Part shown: positions 48,319 to 55,924 of the stretch, in pieces
How positions within the stretch are numbered: the stretch's first letter is position 1
Layout: every line of letters starts with the position of its first letter
Virus record (IMG/VR): IMGVR_UViG_3300037311_000518
Span: 1-55,924 of that record
Length of the DNA: 55,924 nucleotides
Strand: one strand, 5' to 3'
Source: a virus
Lineage: Duplodnaviria > Caudoviricetes
Notes under the pieces: generated by a model
The model's input: only the letters and a program-made list of their open reading frames with translations
What the model was told of the DNA's origin: nothing
Database searches by the model: none
Program-made: the position numbers and the translations under genes

Positions 48319-49005
48319 ATGGCTGATGGCGCGCAATTGGGTTCGGGCATTCGTCGTCTGAGGGTGCTCGTCGCCTGCGAATTCAGCGGCACGGTTCGTG
48401 ACGCCTTCATCAGTGTTGGGCATGACGCGATGAGCTGCGACCTGCTGCCAACCGAGAGGCCGGGACCGCACTACCACGGTGATGTGCGTGACATCATCTG
48501 GGATGCATGGGATCTGCTGATCGCGCATCCGCCCTGCACGTACCTATCTAGCTCAGGACTGCACTGGAACACAAGGGGCAGAACCGTCGATGGCCGACCT
48601 CGTGCGCACCTGACAGACGAAGCCGTCGAATTCGCCCGACTGTTCATCGAAACCGCGTCGCACATACCCATGCGCGCCGTCGAGAATCCGATCGGTTGCC
48701 TGTCAACCCGCATTCGCGAACCCGATCAGATCATCCAGCCGTGGCAATACGGCGAGGACGCCAGCAAAGCGACGTGCCTATGGTTGAGCGGTCTGCCATC
48801 CCTTAAGCCAAGGGCGTTCCATCCGCCGCGACTGGTCGTCCACAAAGACAAGTGGGCCATGCGATGGTCGAATCAAACCGACTCCGGGCAAAACACGCTT
48901 GGACCATCAGACGATCGATGGGCTGAACGCAGTAAAACGTACGTCGGCATCGCCGAAGCCATGGCGAGCCAGTGGGGTCAACTCCCGGCCCGGGAGGCGG
49001 CGTGA
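48319..49005 (+). CDS. phage DNA cytosine methyltransferase-like protein
   Basis: RVLVACEFSG.VRDAF, DLLIAHPPCTYL (PC), VENP, K.TCLWL and RSKTY.GIA.AMA.QW motifs. Confidence 0.8.
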   Translation: MADGAQLGSGIRRLRVLVACEFSGTVRDAFISVGHDAMSCDLLPTERPGPHYHGDVRDIIWDAWDLLIAHPPCTYLSSSGLHWNTRGRTVDGRPRAHLTDEAVEFARLFIETASHIPMRAVENPIGCLSTRIREPDQIIQPWQYGEDASKATCLWLSGLPSLKPRAFHPPRLVVHKDKWAMRWSNQTDSGQNTLGPSDDRWAERSKTYVGIAEAMASQWGQLPAREAA

Positions 49006-49023
49006 TGGATGCTCGGAGCGAAA

Positions 49024-49398
49024 CTACGCCATCTTGTCTCTTTCGTGTCGGCAGTTCTGGCACACGAAATCATCAAGCTGGTAGGCGGTCACCAGAGACT
49101 GGTCATCGATGTATCCGCCATGCGCGCAGCTGCTCACAGAGTCATCGCCGGATACGAGTCCTACTGGACCTTCGCACGGAACCCGGTAGATCAGCGGTCG
49201 GATCGCCGCTCGATAAACGCGATCCTGAGCGGGCGTCAATGCCTCAACACCGACATTCGGATCGAGTAACAACCGCGCGATGCCTGACACGTTTTCCCAT
49301 AAATGGCCGCTGTCTACTGCGGAGCGCTCTAGAACTTCCGGCTGCTCGTCGTAGAGATAGCGCAGCGCAGCGCGATTTACGGACGACTCTTTCGACAT
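49024..49398 (-). CDS. hypothetical Cys-containing protein (counter-oriented moron)
   Basis: Strong SD GGGAGG; C..C..CQNC. Confidence 0.6.
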   Translation of the reverse strand: MSKESSVNRAALRYLYDEQPEVLERSAVDSGHLWENVSGIARLLLDPNVGVEALTPAQDRVYRAAIRPLIYRVPCEGPVGLVSGDDSVSSCAHGGYIDDQSLVTAYQLDDFVCQNCRHERDKMA

Positions 49399-49498
49399 GG
49401 CTCACCCTCCCTCTCTGGTGTCGCGAAATCATGATCCTTAGCGGACTGCTTCGCAACAACCCTGCAAACGCACCCCTACTCACCCAGGACATCGCAGC

Positions 49499-49924
49499 AT
49501 GAGCGACATTGTTTCCCGCGCACGAGAACTTGCGCATCGCGCTCACGACGGGCAGGTGGACAAAGCCGGCCGTCCGTACATCGAGCACGTTTCGCGTGTT
49601 GCTGCGGCGGTGGCGGGTGATCCGGAAGCTGAGGTCGTCGCTTGGCTTCATGACGTCGTCGAAGATCATCCGGAGTATTCCGACGAAGTGTTTTCGTTCC
49701 CGCCGCTGATTGCCCGAGCCATAGATCGGATAACCCGGAAGACAGTGCATCCTGAGACATATTTCGCGTGCATCCGGCTCGACCCGATCGCCCTGCGCGT
49801 CAAGCTCGCCGACATCGCGGACAACGTAGATGAGTCGCGCCTGGCACTACTTGATCCTAAGACCGCTGATCGTTTACGCAAAAAATATGCGCATGCGCTG
49901 AAGGCGCTAGGAGTCAAACCATGA
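49499..49924 (+). CDS. HD-domain hydrolase, RelA/SpoT (small alarmone hydrolase)-like
   Basis: AH.GQ.DKAG.PYI.H, WLHDVVED and VKLADI.DN motifs. Confidence 0.85.
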   Translation: MSDIVSRARELAHRAHDGQVDKAGRPYIEHVSRVAAAVAGDPEAEVVAWLHDVVEDHPEYSDEVFSFPPLIARAIDRITRKTVHPETYFACIRLDPIALRVKLADIADNVDESRLALLDPKTADRLRKKYAHALKALGVKP

Positions 49925-50184
49925 GCAAGCCAACCAACCCGTACACCCGTTTGCTCGAATCGTTCCGAGAATACGTTCACAAGGTTACCTATCGGCACCG
50001 AAAGACGATGTGGGTTTACCCAAAGGGCAGGCTCAATGGCAGCTGGAATCTGACTAGTCTATCGGAGCGCGTTGCCGCTGCCGATCAGCTCGGATACGAC
50101 GTGCAGCTTGTCAACACGGACGACGGGCTGGGTGTCGTCTACGTGAAACGTGTGCCTGAAGCGCCGTACGAGGTTCTCCCATGA
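49921..50184 (+). CDS. hypothetical protein
   Basis: ATGA coupling. Confidence 0.55.
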   Translation: MSKPTNPYTRLLESFREYVHKVTYRHRKTMWVYPKGRLNGSWNLTSLSERVAAADQLGYDVQLVNTDDGLGVVYVKRVPEAPYEVLP

Positions 50185-50723
50185 CCACGCTCACCGAGGC
50201 GCTGAGTGCTTGCGCCGCCAATTTCCGGGAGATCGGCAAAGGCGTTATCGATAAGCAGCGAGTGATCTATGACTACTGCGCTGACCAGATCGACGCGCTG
50301 AATGCCGAACACGGATCCACCATGCTGGCATTGCTGCGGGAGCGGTCTGCGTCGCTTGCCCCTATCGAGTGCGACGAGGCAATGGATCGCACGTACATCC
50401 CGCTCCCTGCCGAATGGGAAGTTCAGACGCGAGGCAAAGGTTCCACGTTCCGCATCGCGCGAACCGATGGCTATGGTGATCGGTTCGCGATCACGGAAGA
50501 ACGCGTCCATGCTGAGCTGGAGCAGATGGCACGCGATATCCACGCGAGATACACAGCATTGCTGCGGGAGCGTGATGAACTACGACGGCTTGTTGATGAG
50601 CTGGCGACGGACTTGGAGAACGAAATAGAAAACCGACGATCTGGCGAGCTTCCACGCCGCATTGAGCGTGACCTGATTATCGTTCGAGAAGCTCGCGCTT
50701 TTCTCACCGGAATCACGCCATGA
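50181..50723 (+). CDS. hypothetical protein
   Basis: ATGA coupling; coiled-coil C-terminus. Confidence 0.55.
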   Translation: MTTLTEALSACAANFREIGKGVIDKQRVIYDYCADQIDALNAEHGSTMLALLRERSASLAPIECDEAMDRTYIPLPAEWEVQTRGKGSTFRIARTDGYGDRFAITEERVHAELEQMARDIHARYTALLRERDELRRLVDELATDLENEIENRRSGELPRRIERDLIIVREARAFLTGITP

Positions 50724-51142
50724 CTACGCTCGAACAGCGAGCGCGAGAACTTGACGCAATGGTGCCGAGCGCCGAACAACTTCGACTCAGCATGGGCGAA
50801 TTGTCGGCCGAAGAAGTACGAATCGCGAAAGCCGCGTATCGGCTGGCGCTCGTACAACATTTTAAGCCATGCGCCGTAGACATGGTGGCAGATGCAGAAA
50901 CGAAACGTGTTGATCAGCTGACCGAGGAAGTGAAGGCGCTCAGGCGGGATGCTGAAAGGTATCGGTGGATCGAAAAGCATGTAACTGAGCTACCCACGAA
51001 AAATTCCATGCGAGGCGAATTTGCAGAACAAAAAACACAGTGGGTTCTACCAACGCTGATTTCATGGGCGGATTTCTGCGGGCCGATCCCGTTTGCTGTC
51101 GCCATCGAGAACGCCATCGCGAACGAACGGGGCGGAACGTGA
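50720..51142 (+). CDS. hypothetical protein (Ead/Eaa-like DAERYRW motif)
   Basis: LRRDAERYRWI. Confidence 0.55.
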   Translation: MTTLEQRARELDAMVPSAEQLRLSMGELSAEEVRIAKAAYRLALVQHFKPCAVDMVADAETKRVDQLTEEVKALRRDAERYRWIEKHVTELPTKNSMRGEFAEQKTQWVLPTLISWADFCGPIPFAVAIENAIANERGGT

Positions 51143-51330
51143 AGACTTCCAAGATTGTCCGCGCGAAGGCTCTGTTGCTTGAAGTTCAGGCCAACGGCCA
51201 CGTGCCAATGATCGAAAAGAACTGGTTGGTGTTTAGACCACCGTTGCCTTTAGATCAACTTATGGAAGCGAGCGAGTTATCGAACGAATTGGTGTCTCTA
51301 CTTGAGAACGAACGAAAGGAGCAAGGGTGA
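51139..51330 (+). CDS. hypothetical protein
   Basis: GTGA coupling. Confidence 0.45.
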   Translation: MKTSKIVRAKALLLEVQANGHVPMIEKNWLVFRPPLPLDQLMEASELSNELVSLLENERKEQG

Positions 51331-51560
51331 AATCTATGGCACTCATTAGTGACAGAACCGAAGGATGGCGGCTCAACCGGATCAATGTCGGTCCGCCGTA
51401 CCACGTCGAGCTGGTTGGTCCATACAAACTAACGCAGGTGGAAGATGCACGCGGAAATGGCGCTTTATCTGGGACAGATGGCGCGGTTTTCTGCGCTACC
51501 CCTGAACTGGCGGTCCGGCTTTGCGAAATGGCAAACGCTGGAATTCTGGATCGTATCTAA
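51327..51560 (+). CDS. hypothetical protein
   Basis: SD AGGAG; TAA stop lies in the attC R' box. Confidence 0.5.
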   Translation: MKSMALISDRTEGWRLNRINVGPPYHVELVGPYKLTQVEDARGNGALSGTDGAVFCATPELAVRLCEMANAGILDRI

Positions 51561-51614
51561 CGTCCGAAATAAGCCGCGTTGCGAAGCAAAGTCGGCTTGA
51601 ATGAATAGTTATGC
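51555..51614 (-). other. attC: integron attC site (60 bp)
   Basis: Minus strand: R'' GCATAAC-TATTC-L'' ATTCAAGC-CGACTTTGCTTCGCAACGCG-L' GCTTATT-TCGGAC-R' GTTAGAT. Confidence 0.88.
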
Positions 51615-51634
51615 CTCATAGCGACGAGACGAGC

Positions 51635-52309
51635 ATGCGAAAAGCAGTGATTGGCAACGCAACCTTGTACTTGGGTGACTGCCGGGACATTCTCCCGACG
51701 TTGCCTCCCGCAGATGCGGTAATAACTGATCCGCCATACGGGATCACATACCAGTCAAACGCTGGCGTTGGTGCGGGGACGCGGCCAATTTCCAACGATG
51801 GCACCCGCGTTTCCCTGCGTCTTTACAAAGCAGTGATACCGCTTTTGCATGGAGCGCCGACGCTCTGGTGTACCCGATGGGACGCTTGGCCCGACGTGTG
51901 GGAGCTGTTCGCAGCGTCGATGAAGGTAAACGGCCTGCTTGTCTGGGATAAGGGTCAGCCCGGAATGGGTGACCTGAAACACTGGGGGCCATCCTATGAG
52001 CTGATCGCATCTTGCGGACCGGTGCGCACGCGTGGATCGCGAGATTGCAGCGTGCTGCGCTACAACACCGTCCCGTCGCAAAACCGAAACCATCCGACAG
52101 AAAAGCCGGAGGCGCTTTTCCGCTACTTGGTGCAGAAAGTGACCGATGAGGGCGACGTGGTTCTTGACCCATTCATGGGAAGCGGTACTACCGGCGTGGC
52201 GGCAGTGAGTGAAGGCCGAAAGTTCATTGGCTGCGAAGTTGACCAATCCTACTTCGACATTGCATGCCGCCGCGTCGAGGATGCGCAACGGCAGGCGGCA
52301 ATGTTTTGA
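51635..52309 (+). CDS. DNA amino-methyltransferase (N6A/N4C, beta class) on a gene cassette
   Basis: LYLGDC, TDPPYG, HPTEKP and VLDPFMGSGTTG motifs. Confidence 0.92.
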   Translation: MRKAVIGNATLYLGDCRDILPTLPPADAVITDPPYGITYQSNAGVGAGTRPISNDGTRVSLRLYKAVIPLLHGAPTLWCTRWDAWPDVWELFAASMKVNGLLVWDKGQPGMGDLKHWGPSYELIASCGPVRTRGSRDCSVLRYNTVPSQNRNHPTEKPEALFRYLVQKVTDEGDVVLDPFMGSGTTGVAAVSEGRKFIGCEVDQSYFDIACRRVEDAQRQAAMF

Positions 52310-52313
52310 TGAG

Positions 52314-52369
52314 GCATAACGTCTGAGTTAACGCGCGCCGAAGGCGTCGCGTTGAACGAAATGTTAGGC
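52314..52369 (-). other. attC: integron attC site (56 bp)
   Basis: Minus strand: R'' GCCTAAC-ATTTC-L'' GTTCAACG-CGACGCCTTCGGCGCG-L' CGTTAAC-TCAGAC-R' GTTATGC. Confidence 0.88.
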
Positions 52370-52410
52370 CAGGCAGCAACAACGCGCTGTGTAGCGCAGG
52401 AAGGTGAACG

Positions 52411-52614
52411 ATGGACGACAAAAACGACTACACGCTTTATTGGCGCGACGGGAAGCATGAAAGCGTGCGCGGGCGTGACATTGCCGACGCAATGAATAGA
52501 GCCGGCTACGGTGGCGGAGCCGTGGCCGCTCTTGACTTCTTTGGGCACGGCAAGACGCCGGCCTATTACTGGAATGCTGACCGCGCAGAGTGGGAAGCTC
52601 TGCCCAACCCGTAA
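52411..52614 (+). CDS. hypothetical protein on a gene cassette
   Basis: SD GAAGG; TLYWRDGK...G.DIADAM..AGYGGGAV.ALDF. Confidence 0.65.
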   Translation: MDDKNDYTLYWRDGKHESVRGRDIADAMNRAGYGGGAVAALDFFGHGKTPAYYWNADRAEWEALPNP

Positions 52615-52616
52615 GG

Positions 52617-52634
52617 GCCTAACTAGTGTTATGC
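52617..52634 (-). other. attI-like/secondary integration site or truncated attC at the head of the cassette array
   Basis: Minus strand GCATAAC-ACTA-GTTAGGC; GTTAGGC complements R'' of attC 52314-52369. Confidence 0.55.
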
Positions 52635-52671
52635 CGCAACGATGCAGCCACATATCCAGGAGGTAGATTGC

Positions 52672-52983
52672 ATGACCATCAAACAACCCAAGCCGCTGTC
52701 GGAGCGACTGTCGGGTTTGCTCATACATAGGGACGAGTACGGATATGCAGATTCGATAGACATCTGGGACACGGTGTTCCTGCATTTGAATGTAGGAACG
52801 TGCCGAAACGAAGAAAATGTTGATGCACTTATACAACTGCTCCGCGAAGCCTCCGAACTTGCGCGGAGGGTGGAAGGTGCACCGAAAGTCAAGGTTCGAG
52901 GGAAGATCGGCGAGGTATGCACAGTGCCCGTATCGCACGACTACTGCGGCAAGCGCGTCGCGCTGGTGGAGGTGGGGGAGTGA
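52672..52983 (+). CDS. hypothetical protein
   Basis: SD GGAGG upstream. Confidence 0.5.
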   Translation: MTIKQPKPLSERLSGLLIHRDEYGYADSIDIWDTVFLHLNVGTCRNEENVDALIQLLREASELARRVEGAPKVKVRGKIGEVCTVPVSHDYCGKRVALVEVGE

Positions 52984-53158
52984 GAATGATGCGAATAGAC
53001 CTGCCCGAAGGTAGGGTGTCGATGACGTGGCCTGACGACCTGTCGGTCGAATCAGCCGAAACGATGGCGCAGCTATTAGAGCTGCAAGTGCGTGGTGTGC
53101 TGCGTTGGGCGAAGCTGCCGGCGCGGGCCGCACAATCCGTAACAGACGAGGTAACGCC

Positions 53159-53392
53159 ATGACCCGCCCCAGCGACCAGGCGATTGCGCTCAAGCCGTGT
53201 CCGTTTTGTGGCGGTGAAGCGCACGTTGCCCAGCCGACCCTGCTAGGTGGCTACATGATCCATTGCGATACGCCATCGTGTCAGGCGCAGTGTCGCCTGT
53301 CCGGTGATTTCGCGAAGGCCGCCGCCGCATGGAACCGCCGAGCCCGCGAGCTGGATGGCGATGTCAATGATGTGGGTGGGTTATGTCCGTAA
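53159..53392 (+). CDS. Lar-family restriction alleviation protein
   Basis: LKPCPFCGGEA...C...C...AAAAWNRRA. Confidence 0.8.
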   Translation: MTRPSDQAIALKPCPFCGGEAHVAQPTLLGGYMIHCDTPSCQAQCRLSGDFAKAAAAWNRRARELDGDVNDVGGLCP

Positions 53393-53580
53393 CTGAACTC
53401 GACAGCTACCGCCCGCATGTCACGCTCCGCACGCCGGACGGCAACGTGCACGTCATCCCCGTCGCGACGTTCGACCGCATCATCGCCGGCGAAATCTCCG
53501 TGCGCGACATCGACGACTGCGATCTGATCGTCCGTGCAGTGTTCTCGGATTGGTTGCTGGATTTGAGGGAGCGTGCGTGA
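53383..53580 (+). CDS. hypothetical protein
   Basis: Coupled ORF. Confidence 0.5.
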   Translation: MSVTELDSYRPHVTLRTPDGNVHVIPVATFDRIIAGEISVRDIDDCDLIVRAVFSDWLLDLRERA

Positions 53581-53885
53581 TGTCGATAGTCCACATCCAC
53601 GCGCCGAAGGCCACAGCAAAACGCGTGATCGCCGGCCACTGCCCCGACTGCAAGAAGCGATCCCGGTTCCTAGTGTTCCACACACCGTGGTACGGCAACA
53701 ATCAGACCTGTCTGCGCTGCGGCCGCGAATGGGCGGATGGCGAATGGATGCGTTTCCCGTTTGTGCGTGGCGCACGGGAAGCTAGCATCGCAACAGCAAA
53801 GATGCGCTGGCGGCGAATGCCGCCCGTCTCCGAGAATCACTTCGGCATCGAGCCCACCACCGACCACGGCGGGGAGAGGGACTAA
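53580..53885 (+). CDS. zinc-finger hypothetical protein
   Basis: CPDC...WYG...TCLRCG..W.DGE. Confidence 0.55.
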   Translation: MSIVHIHAPKATAKRVIAGHCPDCKKRSRFLVFHTPWYGNNQTCLRCGREWADGEWMRFPFVRGAREASIATAKMRWRRMPPVSENHFGIEPTTDHGGERD

Positions 53886-53887
53886 AC

Positions 53888-54136
53888 ATGGCCACAAAAG
53901 ACATCACCGATTTGCAGGTTTGCCAAGCCGTCCGGGCTGGCATGGATCATCCCGGTCCGTACGATGGCAACCATCACCGCCACGTGATCTTAGCGGCCAT
54001 GACCGGCGAGCATCTGAAAGTGTGCTGGCGCGCATTGGAGCGCGCGCAAACACGCGACTTGATCGACTGCGGCGTCGGCTTGCATGTCGCGTACCTGACT
54101 GATGCAGGAAAGGCTTTACTTGGAGATGATGCATGA
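53888..54136 (+). CDS. hypothetical winged-helix-like protein
   Basis: SD GAGG; KDITD..VC...KVCWRA.ER...LTDAG. Confidence 0.55.
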   Translation: MATKDITDLQVCQAVRAGMDHPGPYDGNHHRHVILAAMTGEHLKVCWRALERAQTRDLIDCGVGLHVAYLTDAGKALLGDDA

Positions 54137-54289
54137 CGAAGTTCAATTCCATCCTTTGCGTGATCGGGATGGCATTGTCGGCCTCCGCGGTCATGATCTT
54201 TCTAGACCCGACCCCAATCATTCAAGGCGGCCTCATCGCTGTCGTGGTCATGCTGTCGGTCTATCTGGGACTGACGGCGAGGAGCTGAC

Positions 54290-54484
54290 ATGACCGTCAC
54301 CGAACTACGCGACGCACTGAACGCGTTGATTGAGCAGGGGCATGGGGATCTAATCGTCGCCATGGCATACCCGGTTTATGCCTTCACAGATCGAGAAGAC
54401 GACGAGATCAGCGAATTGAGGATCGTCGACGAGCCGGTGCGGGCATACCGGCCCATGGCGACGCCGTACGTGCGGATTATTTGA
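54290..54484 (+). CDS. hypothetical protein
   Basis: MTVTELRDAL..GHGD; SD GAGGAG. Confidence 0.5.
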   Translation: MTVTELRDALNALIEQGHGDLIVAMAYPVYAFTDREDDEISELRIVDEPVRAYRPMATPYVRII

Positions 54485-54509
54485 TCGAGTTGAACTACCC
54501 ATCCCAGCA

Positions 54510-54758
54510 ATGAACCCCGCCCTCGTACAAGAACCCGAATTGGCCGCCGTCACCGGATACTACACACCGGCCGGTGATCCTGACCGCGGGCAGATCAAAC
54601 GCTGCCTCAAGCGGATGGGTGTACGCTATTTTGAGGGCAAGGGAGGCCGGGTGTGGACGACGACGGACCTGATCAACAGGGCGGGCGGACTGGTGTCCGG
54701 CCAGCCGGCAGCGAACGACGACGACGCGATGGCGCCGTACGGTCCAGAATTCCTGTGA
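54510..54758 (+). CDS. putative excisionase (DUF4224-like)
   Basis: ELAAVTGY...RCL..MGVRYF.G.GG.VWTT.D.IN; directly upstream of the integrase. Confidence 0.65.
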   Translation: MNPALVQEPELAAVTGYYTPAGDPDRGQIKRCLKRMGVRYFEGKGGRVWTTTDLINRAGGLVSGQPAANDDDAMAPYGPEFL

Positions 54759-55924
54759 AGCGCACCGGCCCGAAGCGTCTGATCGATCCGACGATCCCGC
54801 GACACATCGATCAGTCGCAGATTCCGACTGGCGTGTATTGGGATCGCCGCCGATCGCGCTGGTATCAGCTCTACAAGAAGGACGACGGAGCACGCGGACG
54901 CCGGGACGGTCCTGACGCAACCGCGCGCATAGCCGATCTGCACGCATTCGCCGAAAAATTTGTGGACGATGAAGCCGGCACGATTCGTGCCGTGATGAAG
55001 TTGTTCCATGCGAGCGCGAAGTTCAGGGGTCTGGCGCAAGCGACGCGCAAGGGTTACGAGCAGTGCCGGCAGTGGATCATCGTGGAGACGACGGCCGACG
55101 GCGGATCGCTCGCCGATGCGACGATCGACCGGCTCACGCGCCAGCACATCCAGCGACGCATCGACAAGATTTCCGAGGCCACGCCATCGAAAGCGAATGC
55201 AATTCTTCGCTATCTGCGCCGGACACTACGCTGGGGCCAGAATCGCGGACACTGTCGGACGAACCCGGCCGAAGGCGTGGAACTTGCCGAGGAAAAGAAG
55301 AAGGCATCGATGCCGGAAAGCGATGCCGTGTTCATCGCCACCCTGACATTCGCCCAAGCCTGCGCGCGACTACCGGCGCACACCGAGGGCAGCGTACCGG
55401 CGTACCTGCCGCTCGTGATGGAACTGGCGTACCTGTGCCGCCTGCGCGGCGTCGAAGCGCTCGATCTTACCCTGGCCAGCGCCTGCGCGGACGGGTTGAC
55501 TGTCTCGCGAAGGAAGGGCTCGCGCTCGAACCTAGTCGAATGGAACCCGAGGCTGCGGGCGGTTTGGGATTCGGCCCTTGCCGAACGCGCGCGCACCCTG
55601 GCGCGAAAACAGGCACAGGGCGTGGTCGTACCGATCGAGATCGACCCGGGAAAGCGGCGAGTCTTCCTGGCAGAAAGTGGCGCGCCGCTCACGCGCAGCG
55701 GCCTTTCAAGCGCATGGCAGCGTTTCATGGCGATCGCCACAGATCCGGTGAAAGGCTGCATCACGCCAGAGCAACGATTCACATTGCACGGCGTCAAGCA
55801 CCGCGGGATCACGGATACGCCGGGCACGCGCGCCGAGAAACAAGACGCGGCCGGGCACGTCGACCCGCGGATGACCGAGCGCTACGATCACTCCGTCCCG
55901 CGCGTGAAACCGGCTCGGGAATGA
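54755..55924 (+). CDS. int: tyrosine recombinase (phage integrase)
   Basis: LCRLRGVE (R), RRKGS (K), FTLHGVKHRG (variant HxxR), AGH and RY catalytic motifs; no recognisable IntI-specific insertion. Confidence 0.92.
   Translation: MKRTGPKRLIDPTIPRHIDQSQIPTGVYWDRRRSRWYQLYKKDDGARGRRDGPDATARIADLHAFAEKFVDDEAGTIRAVMKLFHASAKFRGLAQATRKGYEQCRQWIIVETTADGGSLADATIDRLTRQHIQRRIDKISEATPSKANAILRYLRRTLRWGQNRGHCRTNPAEGVELAEEKKKASMPESDAVFIATLTFAQACARLPAHTEGSVPAYLPLVMELAYLCRLRGVEALDLTLASACADGLTVSRRKGSRSNLVEWNPRLRAVWDSALAERARTLARKQAQGVVVPIEIDPGKRRVFLAESGAPLTRSGLSSAWQRFMAIATDPVKGCITPEQRFTLHGVKHRGITDTPGTRAEKQDAAGHVDPRMTERYDHSVPRVKPARE

What the first reader, a model, noticed from the sequence alone, without database searches (positions are those of the whole stretch)
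51555..52634. Phage-borne integron cassette array: two complete attC cassettes without an integron integrase
Seen in sequence: two canonical attC sites (60 and 56 bp) on the minus strand, with R''/L''/L'/R' boxes, 5/6-bp spacers and the extra C in L''. Each cassette's leading core site exactly complements its own R'': GTTAGGC/GCCTAAC for the 52411 cassette and GTTATGC/GCATAAC for the methylase cassette. Established knowledge: this complementarity is the footprint of circular cassettes inserted by IntI. The only recombinase in the window is a phage integrase with no recognisable IntI insertion. Inference: the phage borrows a host IntI, which is often SOS-induced like prophages, to acquire, excise or shuffle accessory early genes. 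That would be a phage-integron gene exchange system.
Basis: partly seen in the sequence, partly recalled or inferred. Interest (0 to 1): 0.88.

Follow-up and report, generated by a model that had tools for sequence, protein, structure and literature searches.

The report
Integron gene cassettes inside a prophage
A temperate phage carries two genuine integron-type gene cassettes (a DNA methylase and a small unknown protein) but no integron integrase; phages carrying such cassettes are already described, although here the genes lie backwards relative to their recombination sites.

Summary
A covariance model built only from six true attC sites of plasmid integrons hits exactly two places in the 55.9-kb window. 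These are 52314-52369(-) at 47.1 bits and 51555-51614(-) at 38.3 bits, the same range as held-out true attCs.

They bound two cassettes. Cassette A is 52320-52622 and holds orf67. Cassette B is 51561-52319 and holds an N6_N4 DNA methylase. In both, the leading core is the exact complement of the cassette's own R''. Both cassettes occur elsewhere, with homology ending at these borders.

The window is a real temperate phage and holds no IntI. A homologous methylase cassette, also flanked by two attCs, lies in an unrelated Mu-like prophage. The MAG holding that prophage has IntI.

The kind is in print: Qi et al. 2023 (PMC9892861) report 17 phage CALINs, including methylase cassettes. So this is a new member of a known kind.

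One thing may be new. The ORFs are antisense to the attC top strand, and the same holds in four other phage-embedded arrays. IntI-dependence, the host's IntI and an empty site remain untested.

The parts
52617..52634 (-). Left junction mini-site GCATAAC-ACTA-G|TTAGGC. It has an R''-like and an R'-like box but no L boxes. The crossover lies between 52623 and 52622.
   Evidence: Third-best R1 hit in the window, 13.9 bits, E 0.52, not significant alone. GTTAGGC is the 7/7 complement of the R'' of attC_A. Its geometry resembles the attI1 simple site read in L005, with one more spacer base.
52320..52622 (-). Cassette A, 303 bp.
   Evidence: Bounded by the G|TT crossovers of the left core and of attC_A. 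Homology to metagenome locus L042 (79% nt) runs 52410-52623 and stops at the left core. There a different full attC precedes it.
52411..52614 (+). orf67, a small protein of unknown function, antisense to the attC top strand.
   Evidence: ORF. Codon-usage LLR +17.9 against -18.4 for the other strand. No Pfam, PHROG or NCBIfam hit. AF2 model pLDDT 84.9. Fold matches uncharacterised phage proteins in BFVD, best E 2.4e-7 and TMq 0.87, second is Burkholderia phage BcepSaruman at 5.4e-6. No PDB match at E<=0.001.
52314..52369 (-). attC_A, 56 bp.
   Evidence: R1 47.1 bits, E 3.7e-9. BLAST best hits are true attCs. The + (bottom) strand folds at -16.5 kcal/mol, z -3.75, 0 of 200 shuffles as good.
51561..52319 (-). 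Cassette B, 759 bp.
   Evidence: Bounded by the crossovers of attC_A and attC_B. Homology in L007 (94.4% nt) runs 51601-52320. Contigs of runs X3, X5 and X8 stop at 52320/52321, and in X3 also at 51557/51558, with unlike flanks.
51611..52309 (+). Orphan N6_N4 DNA methyltransferase, antisense to the attC top strand. The first ATG lies inside R'' of attC_B. An alternative ATG is at 51635.
   Evidence: PF01555 2e-26. phrog_67 1.8e-57. NCBIfam adenine-methylase models all below cut-off. LLR +36.0 against -4.5.
51555..51614 (-). attC_B, 60 bp.
   Evidence: R1 38.3 bits, E 5.4e-7. The + strand folds at -9.4 kcal/mol, z -2.31. Short, very deep unitigs (35-44 nt, depth 147-190) of three laid runs cover 51570-51611 only.
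51327..51560 (+). orf77, the phage backbone gene at the right junction. Its stop codon TAA (51558-51560) is the TTA of R'.
   Evidence: 19 representative homologues. 8 of 12 aligned homologues end in the same alignment column as orf77, so its C-terminus is native. In viral contig L034 a homologue (64%) is followed by an unrelated gene with no attC.
52642..52983 (+). orf113, the flanking phage gene on the other side. A start at 52672 behind AGGAGG is more likely.
   Evidence: ORF. Only 2 proteins in 5.8 billion, one being the window's own.
53105..53392 (+). Lar-like restriction-alleviation gene (context).
   Evidence: phrog_599 4.7e-12.
54510..55924 (+). Excisionase and phage tyrosine integrase at the prophage end (context). 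Not an IntI.
   Evidence: phrog_1266 2.9e-8 and phrog_1 2.6e-26. TIGR02249 finds nothing in the window.

Best explanation
The interval is a two-cassette CALIN, a cluster of attC sites lacking an integron integrase, embedded in the early-left accessory region of a temperate phage. It lies between recT/exo and lar-xis-int.

Shown: there are two structurally canonical attC sites. The cassette borders are exact. Each cassette also exists independently in other genetic contexts. The phage encodes no IntI.

Inferred: a host integron integrase inserted the cassettes by recombining the folded bottom strand of an attC (the window's + strand) with a double-stranded non-att site. That site reads ...ACTAG|TTAGAT on the minus strand and lies immediately after the stop codon of orf77. 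Either B went in first and A then entered at the same upstream junction, or both entered as one circle.

Inferred: because the ORFs are antisense to the attC top strand, they are co-directional with the phage early operon. They have no room for promoters of their own, so phage read-through transcribes them.

Inferred: the orphan methylase protects phage DNA from host restriction, next to the Lar-like gene. The function of orf67 is unknown. It belongs to a small family of phage-type proteins.

Inferred: in an IntI-positive host the cassettes could be excised or exchanged.
For: attC identity:
- R1 hits.
- BLAST to true attCs beside intI.
- L-box covariation over 38 sites: 94.7% of cells paired against 82.0% in shuffles, 0 of 500 shuffles as high, 5 of 7 L-box pairs with changes on both sides. 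This alignment is fitted to the model.

Borders:
- The core is the complement of the cassette's own R'' in 2 of 2 cassettes.
- The right junction is fixed to within 3 nt, because orf77 keeps its native last residue.

Independent mobility:
- Cassette B in chromosomal locus L007: 94.4% nt over 51601-52320, with RND efflux genes beside it.
- Cassette B in contigs of 3 laid runs from 3 studies, with unlike flanks.
- Cassette A in array L042, with other neighbours.

Parallel case: L008 is a Mu-like prophage with transposase A and B, Gam and a Mor-like gene. It has attC, a methylase (81% aa), attC and a phrog_464 gene in the same antisense layout, with the same core rule. Its MAG has IntI at 462 bits against a cut-off of 265, with attCs beside it.

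Phage context.

No promoter-like site on the + strand in 49000-54700.

Published precedent: IntI1 recombined 5 of 6 phage-borne attCs (PMC9892861, section 3.4 read). Cassettes insert at non-att genome sites and are expressed from nearby promoters (bioRxiv 10.1101/2022.09.11.507474, abstract and one results section read).
Against:
- R1 rests on 6 sequences and its E-values are rough.
- The host genome beyond the provirus could not be searched, so host IntI is unknown.
- No empty-site relative was found.
- The R''-like GCATAAC of the left mini-site is identical to the R'' of attC_B. It could therefore be a collapsed attC, which would favour capture of the array in one piece.
- The reconstructed target lacks the CRGM motif of attG hotspots.
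- In L007 the homology stops inside attC_B at 51601, 57 nt from the contig end. No attC could be called there.
- The IntI contig and the prophage contig of the Dokdonella MAG are joined only by binning.
- Of 19 methylase loci only 1 has attCs, and of 25 orf67 loci only 1. Most family members are ordinary genes. Of the methylase homologues, only L009 was checked and lies among phage genes.
Confidence: 0.78

Rival explanations
1. The array was captured in one piece from a bacterial integron or CALIN by illegitimate or homologous recombination, as proposed for Vibrio prophages. It did not enter by IntI-mediated insertion into the phage. On this reading the 18-bp mini-site is a collapsed attC of an upstream cassette.
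For: - The mini-site's GCATAAC equals the R'' of attC_B in 7 of 7 positions, and it carries both R boxes.
- Qi et al. note inverted GTTRRRY motifs at the edges of phage CALINs and suggest off-target homologous or illegitimate recombination.
- In L042 a full attC occupies the position of the mini-site.
Against: - The right junction coincides with the G|TT of attC_B to within 3 nt, and orf77 is intact to its last residue.
- No partial cassette lies at either end.
- Phage genes follow directly on both sides.
- The same two-cassette, attC-less left edge is seen in L008 without a TAAC box in the few bases directly before its left core.
Confidence: 0.15
2. The hairpins are the phage's own terminators or regulatory palindromes, and they only resemble attC by chance.
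For: - They sit between genes.
- The attC_B fold is weak on the minus strand (z -1.51, 16 of 200 shuffles as good).
- Nothing relevant reached threshold in Rfam.
Against: - Model scores equal those of held-out true attCs, with a strong strand asymmetry.
- The best plasmid BLAST hits are true attCs.
- The units they bound recur elsewhere with the same borders.
- Terminator-like sites in the region are no more frequent than in shuffles (6 found, 5.4 expected), and none lies on an attC.
Confidence: 0.02
3. Artefact: a chimeric metagenome assembly or a wrong provirus boundary has placed bacterial integron DNA next to phage DNA.
For: - The record is a metagenome-derived provirus estimated 79% complete.
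- One IMG/VR 'provirus' with this attC type (L040) ends in a true intI with a conventional array. Host integrons can therefore be swept into such records.
Against: - The cassettes are flanked on both sides, within 30 nt, by + strand genes of one operon. That operon runs from recT/exo to lar, xis and int.
- The junctions are at crossover points, not at arbitrary positions.
- One run holds all sampled words of 50700-53400, although it may be the source itself.
Confidence: 0.03

Closest known systems
CALINs in bacteriophage genomes (Qi, Rajabal, Ghaly, Tetu, Gillings 2023, Front Microbiol, PMC9892861; outline and section 3 read)
   Same: At least 2 attC sites without IntI inside a phage genome. 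Cassettes encode orphan DNA methylases (5 reported, including N6_N4_Mtase). Inverted GTTRRRY motifs lie at the array edge. The paper proposes that phages draw anti-restriction genes from the cassette pool, and IntI1 recombined 5 of 6 phage attCs.
   Different: This is a temperate integrase-type prophage from a metagenome. Here the ORFs are antisense to the attC top strand, both cassettes were traced in other contexts with borders at the crossovers, and the right junction is precise. Their supplementary tables list the 17 CALINs and their borders. I could not see them, and they may bear on orientation.
attC sites of plasmid-borne class 1 and class 3-like integrons (L001, Diaphorobacter plasmid NZ_CP049911; L002, IncP plasmid LC623924)
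   Same: The same box order, spacers and extra L'' base. attC_A is 83% identical to the first attC of L001.
   Different: There is no intI, attI or Pc beside them. The cassette ORFs are inverted, whereas 6 of 12 L002 segments are called conventional, 1 is weakly inverted and 5 are unclear.
Cassette insertion at non-att genome sites, attG (Loot et al., bioRxiv 10.1101/2022.09.11.507474; abstract and section 33 read)
   Same: The cassette is inserted outside attI and attC at a G|TT. Expression depends on a neighbouring promoter. Isolated cassettes lack IntI.
   Different: The target lacks the CRGM motif at +6..+9. It has an attI-like inverted TAAC/GTTA pair, holds two cassettes, and the recipient is a phage.
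Vibrio anguillarum prophage Va_90-11-286_p16 carrying part of the host chromosomal integron (as described in PMC9892861, section 3.1)
   Same: A temperate phage carrying integron cassettes.
   Different: That phage holds IntI and a subset of the host's array, captured at excision. Here there is no IntI, only two cassettes, and they lie deep inside an operon.
Mu-like prophage of a Dokdonella MAG
   Same: A two-cassette array with a homologous methylase cassette (81% aa), antisense ORFs, the core rule kept, and insertion at the 3' end of a phage gene.
   Different: The phage backbone is unrelated and transposable. The partner cassette is different (a phrog_464 gene). IntI is found in the same MAG.

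Membership tests
integron attC site | Inverted core boxes R'' (RYYYAAC) and R' (GTTRRRY) | tested here: met
   A has GCCTAAC and GTTATGC. B has GCATAAC and GTTAGAT. Each site has one departure from the strict consensus. That is normal: the strict pattern found only 1 of 10 true sites.
integron attC site | L''/L' boxes with an unpaired base in L'' and unequal spacers, which give strand asymmetry | tested here: met
   Alignment to R1. Minus strand 47.1 and 38.3 bits. The plus strand of A scores 11.0 bits and the plus strand of B is not listed at E<=10.
integron attC site | A covariance-model score in the range of true sites | tested here: met
   Held-out true sites score 38.5-47.3 bits: aadA2 44.8, GES 41.3 and 38.5, unnamed L002 cassettes 45.4-47.3. 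The model is home-made from 6 sites. IntegronFinder's own model was not available.
integron attC site | Recombined by an integron integrase | not testable with these tools
   Needs an attC x attI assay.
integron gene cassette | A unit between two G|TT crossovers whose circular form restores a complementary R''/R' pair | tested here: met
   2 of 2 cassettes match at 7/7. True arrays are perfect at 5 of 14 junctions.
integron gene cassette | The same unit is found in other arrays or contexts with breaks at its borders | tested here: met
   B: L007, runs X3, X5 and X8, and L008. A: L042.
integron gene cassette | A promoterless ORF co-oriented with the attC top strand, so that Pc can express it | tested here: not met
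   Both ORFs are antisense to the attC top strand. They are promoterless but could not be read from a Pc.
complete integron | intI with attI and Pc beside the array | tested here: not met
   TIGR02249 gives 0 matches in the whole 55.9-kb record.
CALIN (cluster of attC sites lacking an integron integrase) | At least two attC sites close together with no intI nearby | tested here: met
   Two sites 700 bp apart and no IntI.
attG-type secondary-site insertion | GWT at the crossover plus a CRGM motif at +6..+9 | tested here: inconclusive
   GTT is present. Positions +6..+9 of the reconstructed target read TACG, which is not CRGM. The paper describes a very broad landscape of sites.

The most novel reading that the evidence does not exclude
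There may be a pool of phage-adapted cassettes, holding anti-restriction methylases and small phage proteins, whose ORFs lie antisense to the attC top strand. In a bacterial integron such cassettes would be silent, because they are antisense to Pc. They would be expressed only when IntI drops them into a phage operon. Integrons would then double as silent stores and exchange hubs of phage accessory or counter-defence genes, shared between unrelated phages.

Support so far: in 5 phage-embedded arrays without IntI (window, L008, L035, L037, L041), 11 of 15 inter-attC segments are called inverted, 0 conventional and 4 unclear. PHROG hits resolve 2 of the 4 unclear segments as inverted. Arrays beside IntI are mostly conventional (L002: 6 of 12; L040: 10 of 13). 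The one phage-type methylase cassette in the true Dokdonella integron L026 is also inverted.
Probability: 0.3. Interest if true: 0.72.

Novelty: new member of a known kind. Interest (0 to 1): 0.52.

Why it matters
This is a clean, sequence-level case of integron cassettes entering a phage genome at a non-att site. The junctions are precise, and both cassettes can be traced in a bacterial chromosome, in other arrays and in an unrelated Mu-like prophage. The 2023 description of phage CALINs left the route of acquisition open, and this case supports site-specific insertion by IntI.

The antisense arrangement bears on a further question. If it proves general, phage-type cassettes could not be driven by Pc. 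Integrons might then store genes that benefit phages and not the host. That idea can be tested with standard attC x attI and expression assays.

Tried and rejected
- Rfam scan of 51000-53200 at E<=10: only a trypanosomatid snoRNA at 16.9 bits against a gathering score of 40. This is noise.
- blastn of the interval against 50,697 phage records: 2 records, each 95 nt inside the methylase, with nothing on the interval itself.
- Relatives for an empty-site comparison. orf113, orf180 and the integrase gave none in viral contigs. The integrase gave none in genome contigs. RecT gave L006, which shares only recT and has no attC. orf77 gave L034, which has no attC but a different downstream gene. The empty site therefore remains untested.
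- The first orf77 alignment was too diverse for a locus search and was redone with 4 sequences.
- Read laying: none of the 4 runs covered 52429-53247, so they say nothing on cassette A or orf113.
- PHROGs on 8 L007 ORFs gave 0 hits. Pfam then showed chromosomal efflux genes.
- Pfam on 10 candidate cassette ORFs of L037 and L041 gave 0 hits. Orientation was then judged by codon-usage LLR and PHROGs.
- The longest-ORF heuristic was replaced by the LLR, because high-GC shadow ORFs mislead it.
- A second, looser attC pattern scan of viral contigs found 0 matches.
- PDB fold search for orf67 gave no match at E<=0.001.
- The promoter and terminator scan gave nothing above shuffles.
- The metagenome scan failed once because the machine was busy. 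It was repeated successfully.

Full report
**What is there**

On the minus strand, 51555-52634 reads as follows:
- GCATAAC-ACTA-G|TTAGGC
- the reverse complement of a 67-aa ORF
- a 56-bp palindromic element
- the reverse complement of a 232-aa N6_N4 DNA methylase
- a 60-bp palindromic element ending G|TTAGAT, whose TTA is the stop codon of the next + strand gene, orf77

All genes from about 45 kb to the end of the window are on the + strand.

**Are the two elements attC sites?**

Nothing relevant reached threshold in Rfam, so I built a test from true sites.

BLAST of the first element against 72,556 plasmids gave 15 records. Only two cover at least 70% of it. One is the first attC behind intI on a Diaphorobacter plasmid. 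The other is an attC in a class 1 integron on an IncP plasmid.

I built covariance model R1 from six true attCs of those two arrays, none from the window.
- Over the window and five integron loci it found 23 hits at E<=10. The window contributes 52314-52369(-) at 47.1 bits and 51555-51614(-) at 38.3 bits.
- Held-out true sites score 38.5-47.3 bits (aadA2, GES, unnamed cassettes).
- With filters off, the whole window gives these two hits (E 3.7e-9 and 5.4e-7) and then nothing better than E 0.52.
- Wrong-strand scores are about 11-16 bits, so the attC top strand is the window's minus strand.
- Control DNA gave no hit below E 0.3: L006, L034, L007, L009 and L010.
- Over 38 model-aligned sites the L-box helix covaries. 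94.7% of cells are paired against 82.0% in shuffles, and 0 of 500 shuffles reach that. This alignment is fitted to the model.
- As single-stranded DNA, the + (bottom) strands fold better than shuffles (z -3.75 and -2.31).

**Cassette borders**

The crossovers give cassette A at 52320-52622 (303 bp) and cassette B at 51561-52319 (759 bp). Each leading core is the exact complement of its own R''. In true arrays the match was perfect at 5 of 14 junctions, 6 of 7 positions at 8 junctions and 5 of 7 at 1 junction.

The right junction is fixed independently. 8 of 12 aligned orf77 homologues end in the same column as orf77, so phage sequence runs to the last codon and the junction falls within 3 nt of G|TT.

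The left edge is an 18-bp pair of R boxes without L boxes. It scores 13.9 bits, which is not significant. It resembles the attI1 simple site read in L005, with one more spacer base.

**Both cassettes exist elsewhere**

Cassette B:
- Contigs of four other metagenome runs were laid on 50700-53400.
- In X3, two contigs cover 51557-51987 and 51961-52321 and then run on unlike sequence.
- In X8, an 842-nt contig covers 51591-52320 with unlike sequence on both sides. X5 is similar.
- X2 holds a 215-nt piece with one difference.
- Very deep unitigs (depth 147-190) match only 51570-51611. This attC is therefore a high-copy repeat in those samples.
- In genome contigs the methylase found 19 loci.
- L007 (97% aa) is 94.4% identical over 51601-52320. 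It stops exactly at the border, next to RND efflux genes.

Cassette A:
- The orf67 family found 25 metagenome loci. Only the closest, L042 (91% aa), has attCs.
- In L042 one attC lies directly before the gene, as in the window, and another lies further on. A full attC, cut by the contig end, sits where the window has the mini-site.
- Homology runs 52410-52623 and ends at the core.

**A second phage**

L008 is a contig from a Dokdonella MAG. It holds a Mu-like prophage with transposase A and B, Gam and a Mor-like activator. This is followed by attC(-), a methylase (+, 81% aa), attC(-) and a phrog_464 gene (+). The core rule is kept for both cassettes.

That MAG has IntI (462 bits against a cut-off of 265) with attCs beside it on another contig. 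The link between the two contigs rests on binning.

In L009 the methylase (71% aa) lies among phage genes, namely Erf and a replication initiator. It has no attC there.

**Context in the window**

The window is a genuine temperate phage:
- large terminase (66% aa to Pseudomonas phages TC7 and phi2), major head and tail fibre proteins
- RecT, exonuclease and an HD hydrolase
- a Lar-like gene, excisionase and integrase

The record is the provirus alone, estimated 79% complete, and TIGR02249 finds nothing in it. Host IntI could therefore not be checked.

**Orientation**

In both cassettes the ORF is antisense to the attC top strand and starts at the R'' side. There is no room for a promoter, and no promoter-like site lies on the + strand.

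I trained a codon-usage log-likelihood on 13 window genes. It validated on 13 of 13 true genes and 2 of 2 shadow ORFs. Applied to inter-attC segments, it gave these calls:

| Array | Context | Inverted | Conventional | Unclear |
|---|---|---|---|---|
| window | phage genes, no IntI | 2 | 0 | 0 |
| L008 | Mu-like prophage | 1 | 0 | 1 (inverted by PHROG) |
| L035 | phage genes, no IntI | 5 | 0 | 1 |
| L037 | phage genes, no IntI | 1 | 0 | 1 |
| L041 | phage genes, no IntI | 2 | 0 | 1 (inverted by PHROG) |
| L002 | plasmid class 1 integron | 1 (weak) | 6 | 5 |
| L040 | record with IntI at 489 bits | 1 | 10 | 2 |
| L036 | 7-kb fragment, context unknown | 0 | 5 | 3 |
| L038 | not examined | 0 | 1 | 0 |
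| L001 | plasmid integron | 0 | 0 | 2 |

In the true Dokdonella integron L026 the second cassette is an inverted methylase.

The sample is small, and L035-L041 were chosen by one attC-subtype pattern. I found no statement on this in the papers I searched (term searches in two papers).

**What is known**

Qi et al. 2023 (PMC9892861; outline and all of section 3 read) screened 10,705 phage genomes.
- They report 3 complete integrons, 1 In0 and 17 CALINs.
- They report five methylase cassettes, including N6_N4_Mtase.
- IntI1 recombined 5 of 6 phage attCs.
- They note inverted GTTRRRY motifs at CALIN edges.

Loot et al. (bioRxiv 10.1101/2022.09.11.507474; abstract and one section read) show cassette insertion at non-att genome sites. 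The finding is therefore a new member of a known kind.

**Verdict**

The antisense arrangement, recurring in unrelated phages, is the part worth following up.

Noticed in passing
L008:7532-9068 (Dokdonella MAG contig): A Mu-like prophage carries a two-cassette attC array directly behind its Mor-like gene. The cassettes hold a methylase (81% aa to the window's) and a phrog_464 gene. The Mor-like ORF runs 18 nt or more into the attC.
   Followed up: yes
L035-L041 (IMG/VR contigs): Seven viral contigs carry this attC subtype, with 41 R1 hits at E<=0.01. L040 alone has 15 sites on the array strand and ends in a true intI, so it may be a host integron swept into a provirus call. L035, L037 and L041 have arrays among phage genes.
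   Followed up: partly
L002:2970-4625 (IncP plasmid LC623924): Six attCs are spaced about 319 bp apart, forming a run of near-identical small cassettes without clear coding potential inside a class 1 integron.
   Followed up: no
window 51570-51611: In three laid runs (X3, X5, X8), unitigs of 35-44 nt at depth 147-190 match only the core of attC_B. The cassette body is at depth about 4-7. This attC type is a high-copy repeat in those communities.
   Followed up: partly
window 53105-53392: A Lar-like restriction-alleviation gene lies 0.5 kb beyond the cassettes. Together with the methylase it forms an anti-restriction cluster.
   Followed up: no
L026:3125-3883(-): In the true Dokdonella integron, the second cassette is a different DNA methylase (phrog_24333, 2e-16). 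It lies antisense to its attCs, while the first cassette is conventional.
   Followed up: partly
L008:9200-9445: Two direct copies of a repeat about 120 nt long, holding a GC-rich hairpin, lie just beyond the array. They look REP-like and are not attC by R1.
   Followed up: no
window 50942-51012 and 53335-53400: Run X2 holds short pieces matching phage backbone outside the cassettes, with 3 and 5 differences. It may contain a relative of this phage.
   Followed up: no
L007:1-90: The 94%-identical methylase cassette keeps R'' and the spacer of attC_B. It then diverges inside the attC, 57 nt before the contig end. The cause is unexplained and could be a different attC or a rearrangement.
   Followed up: partly
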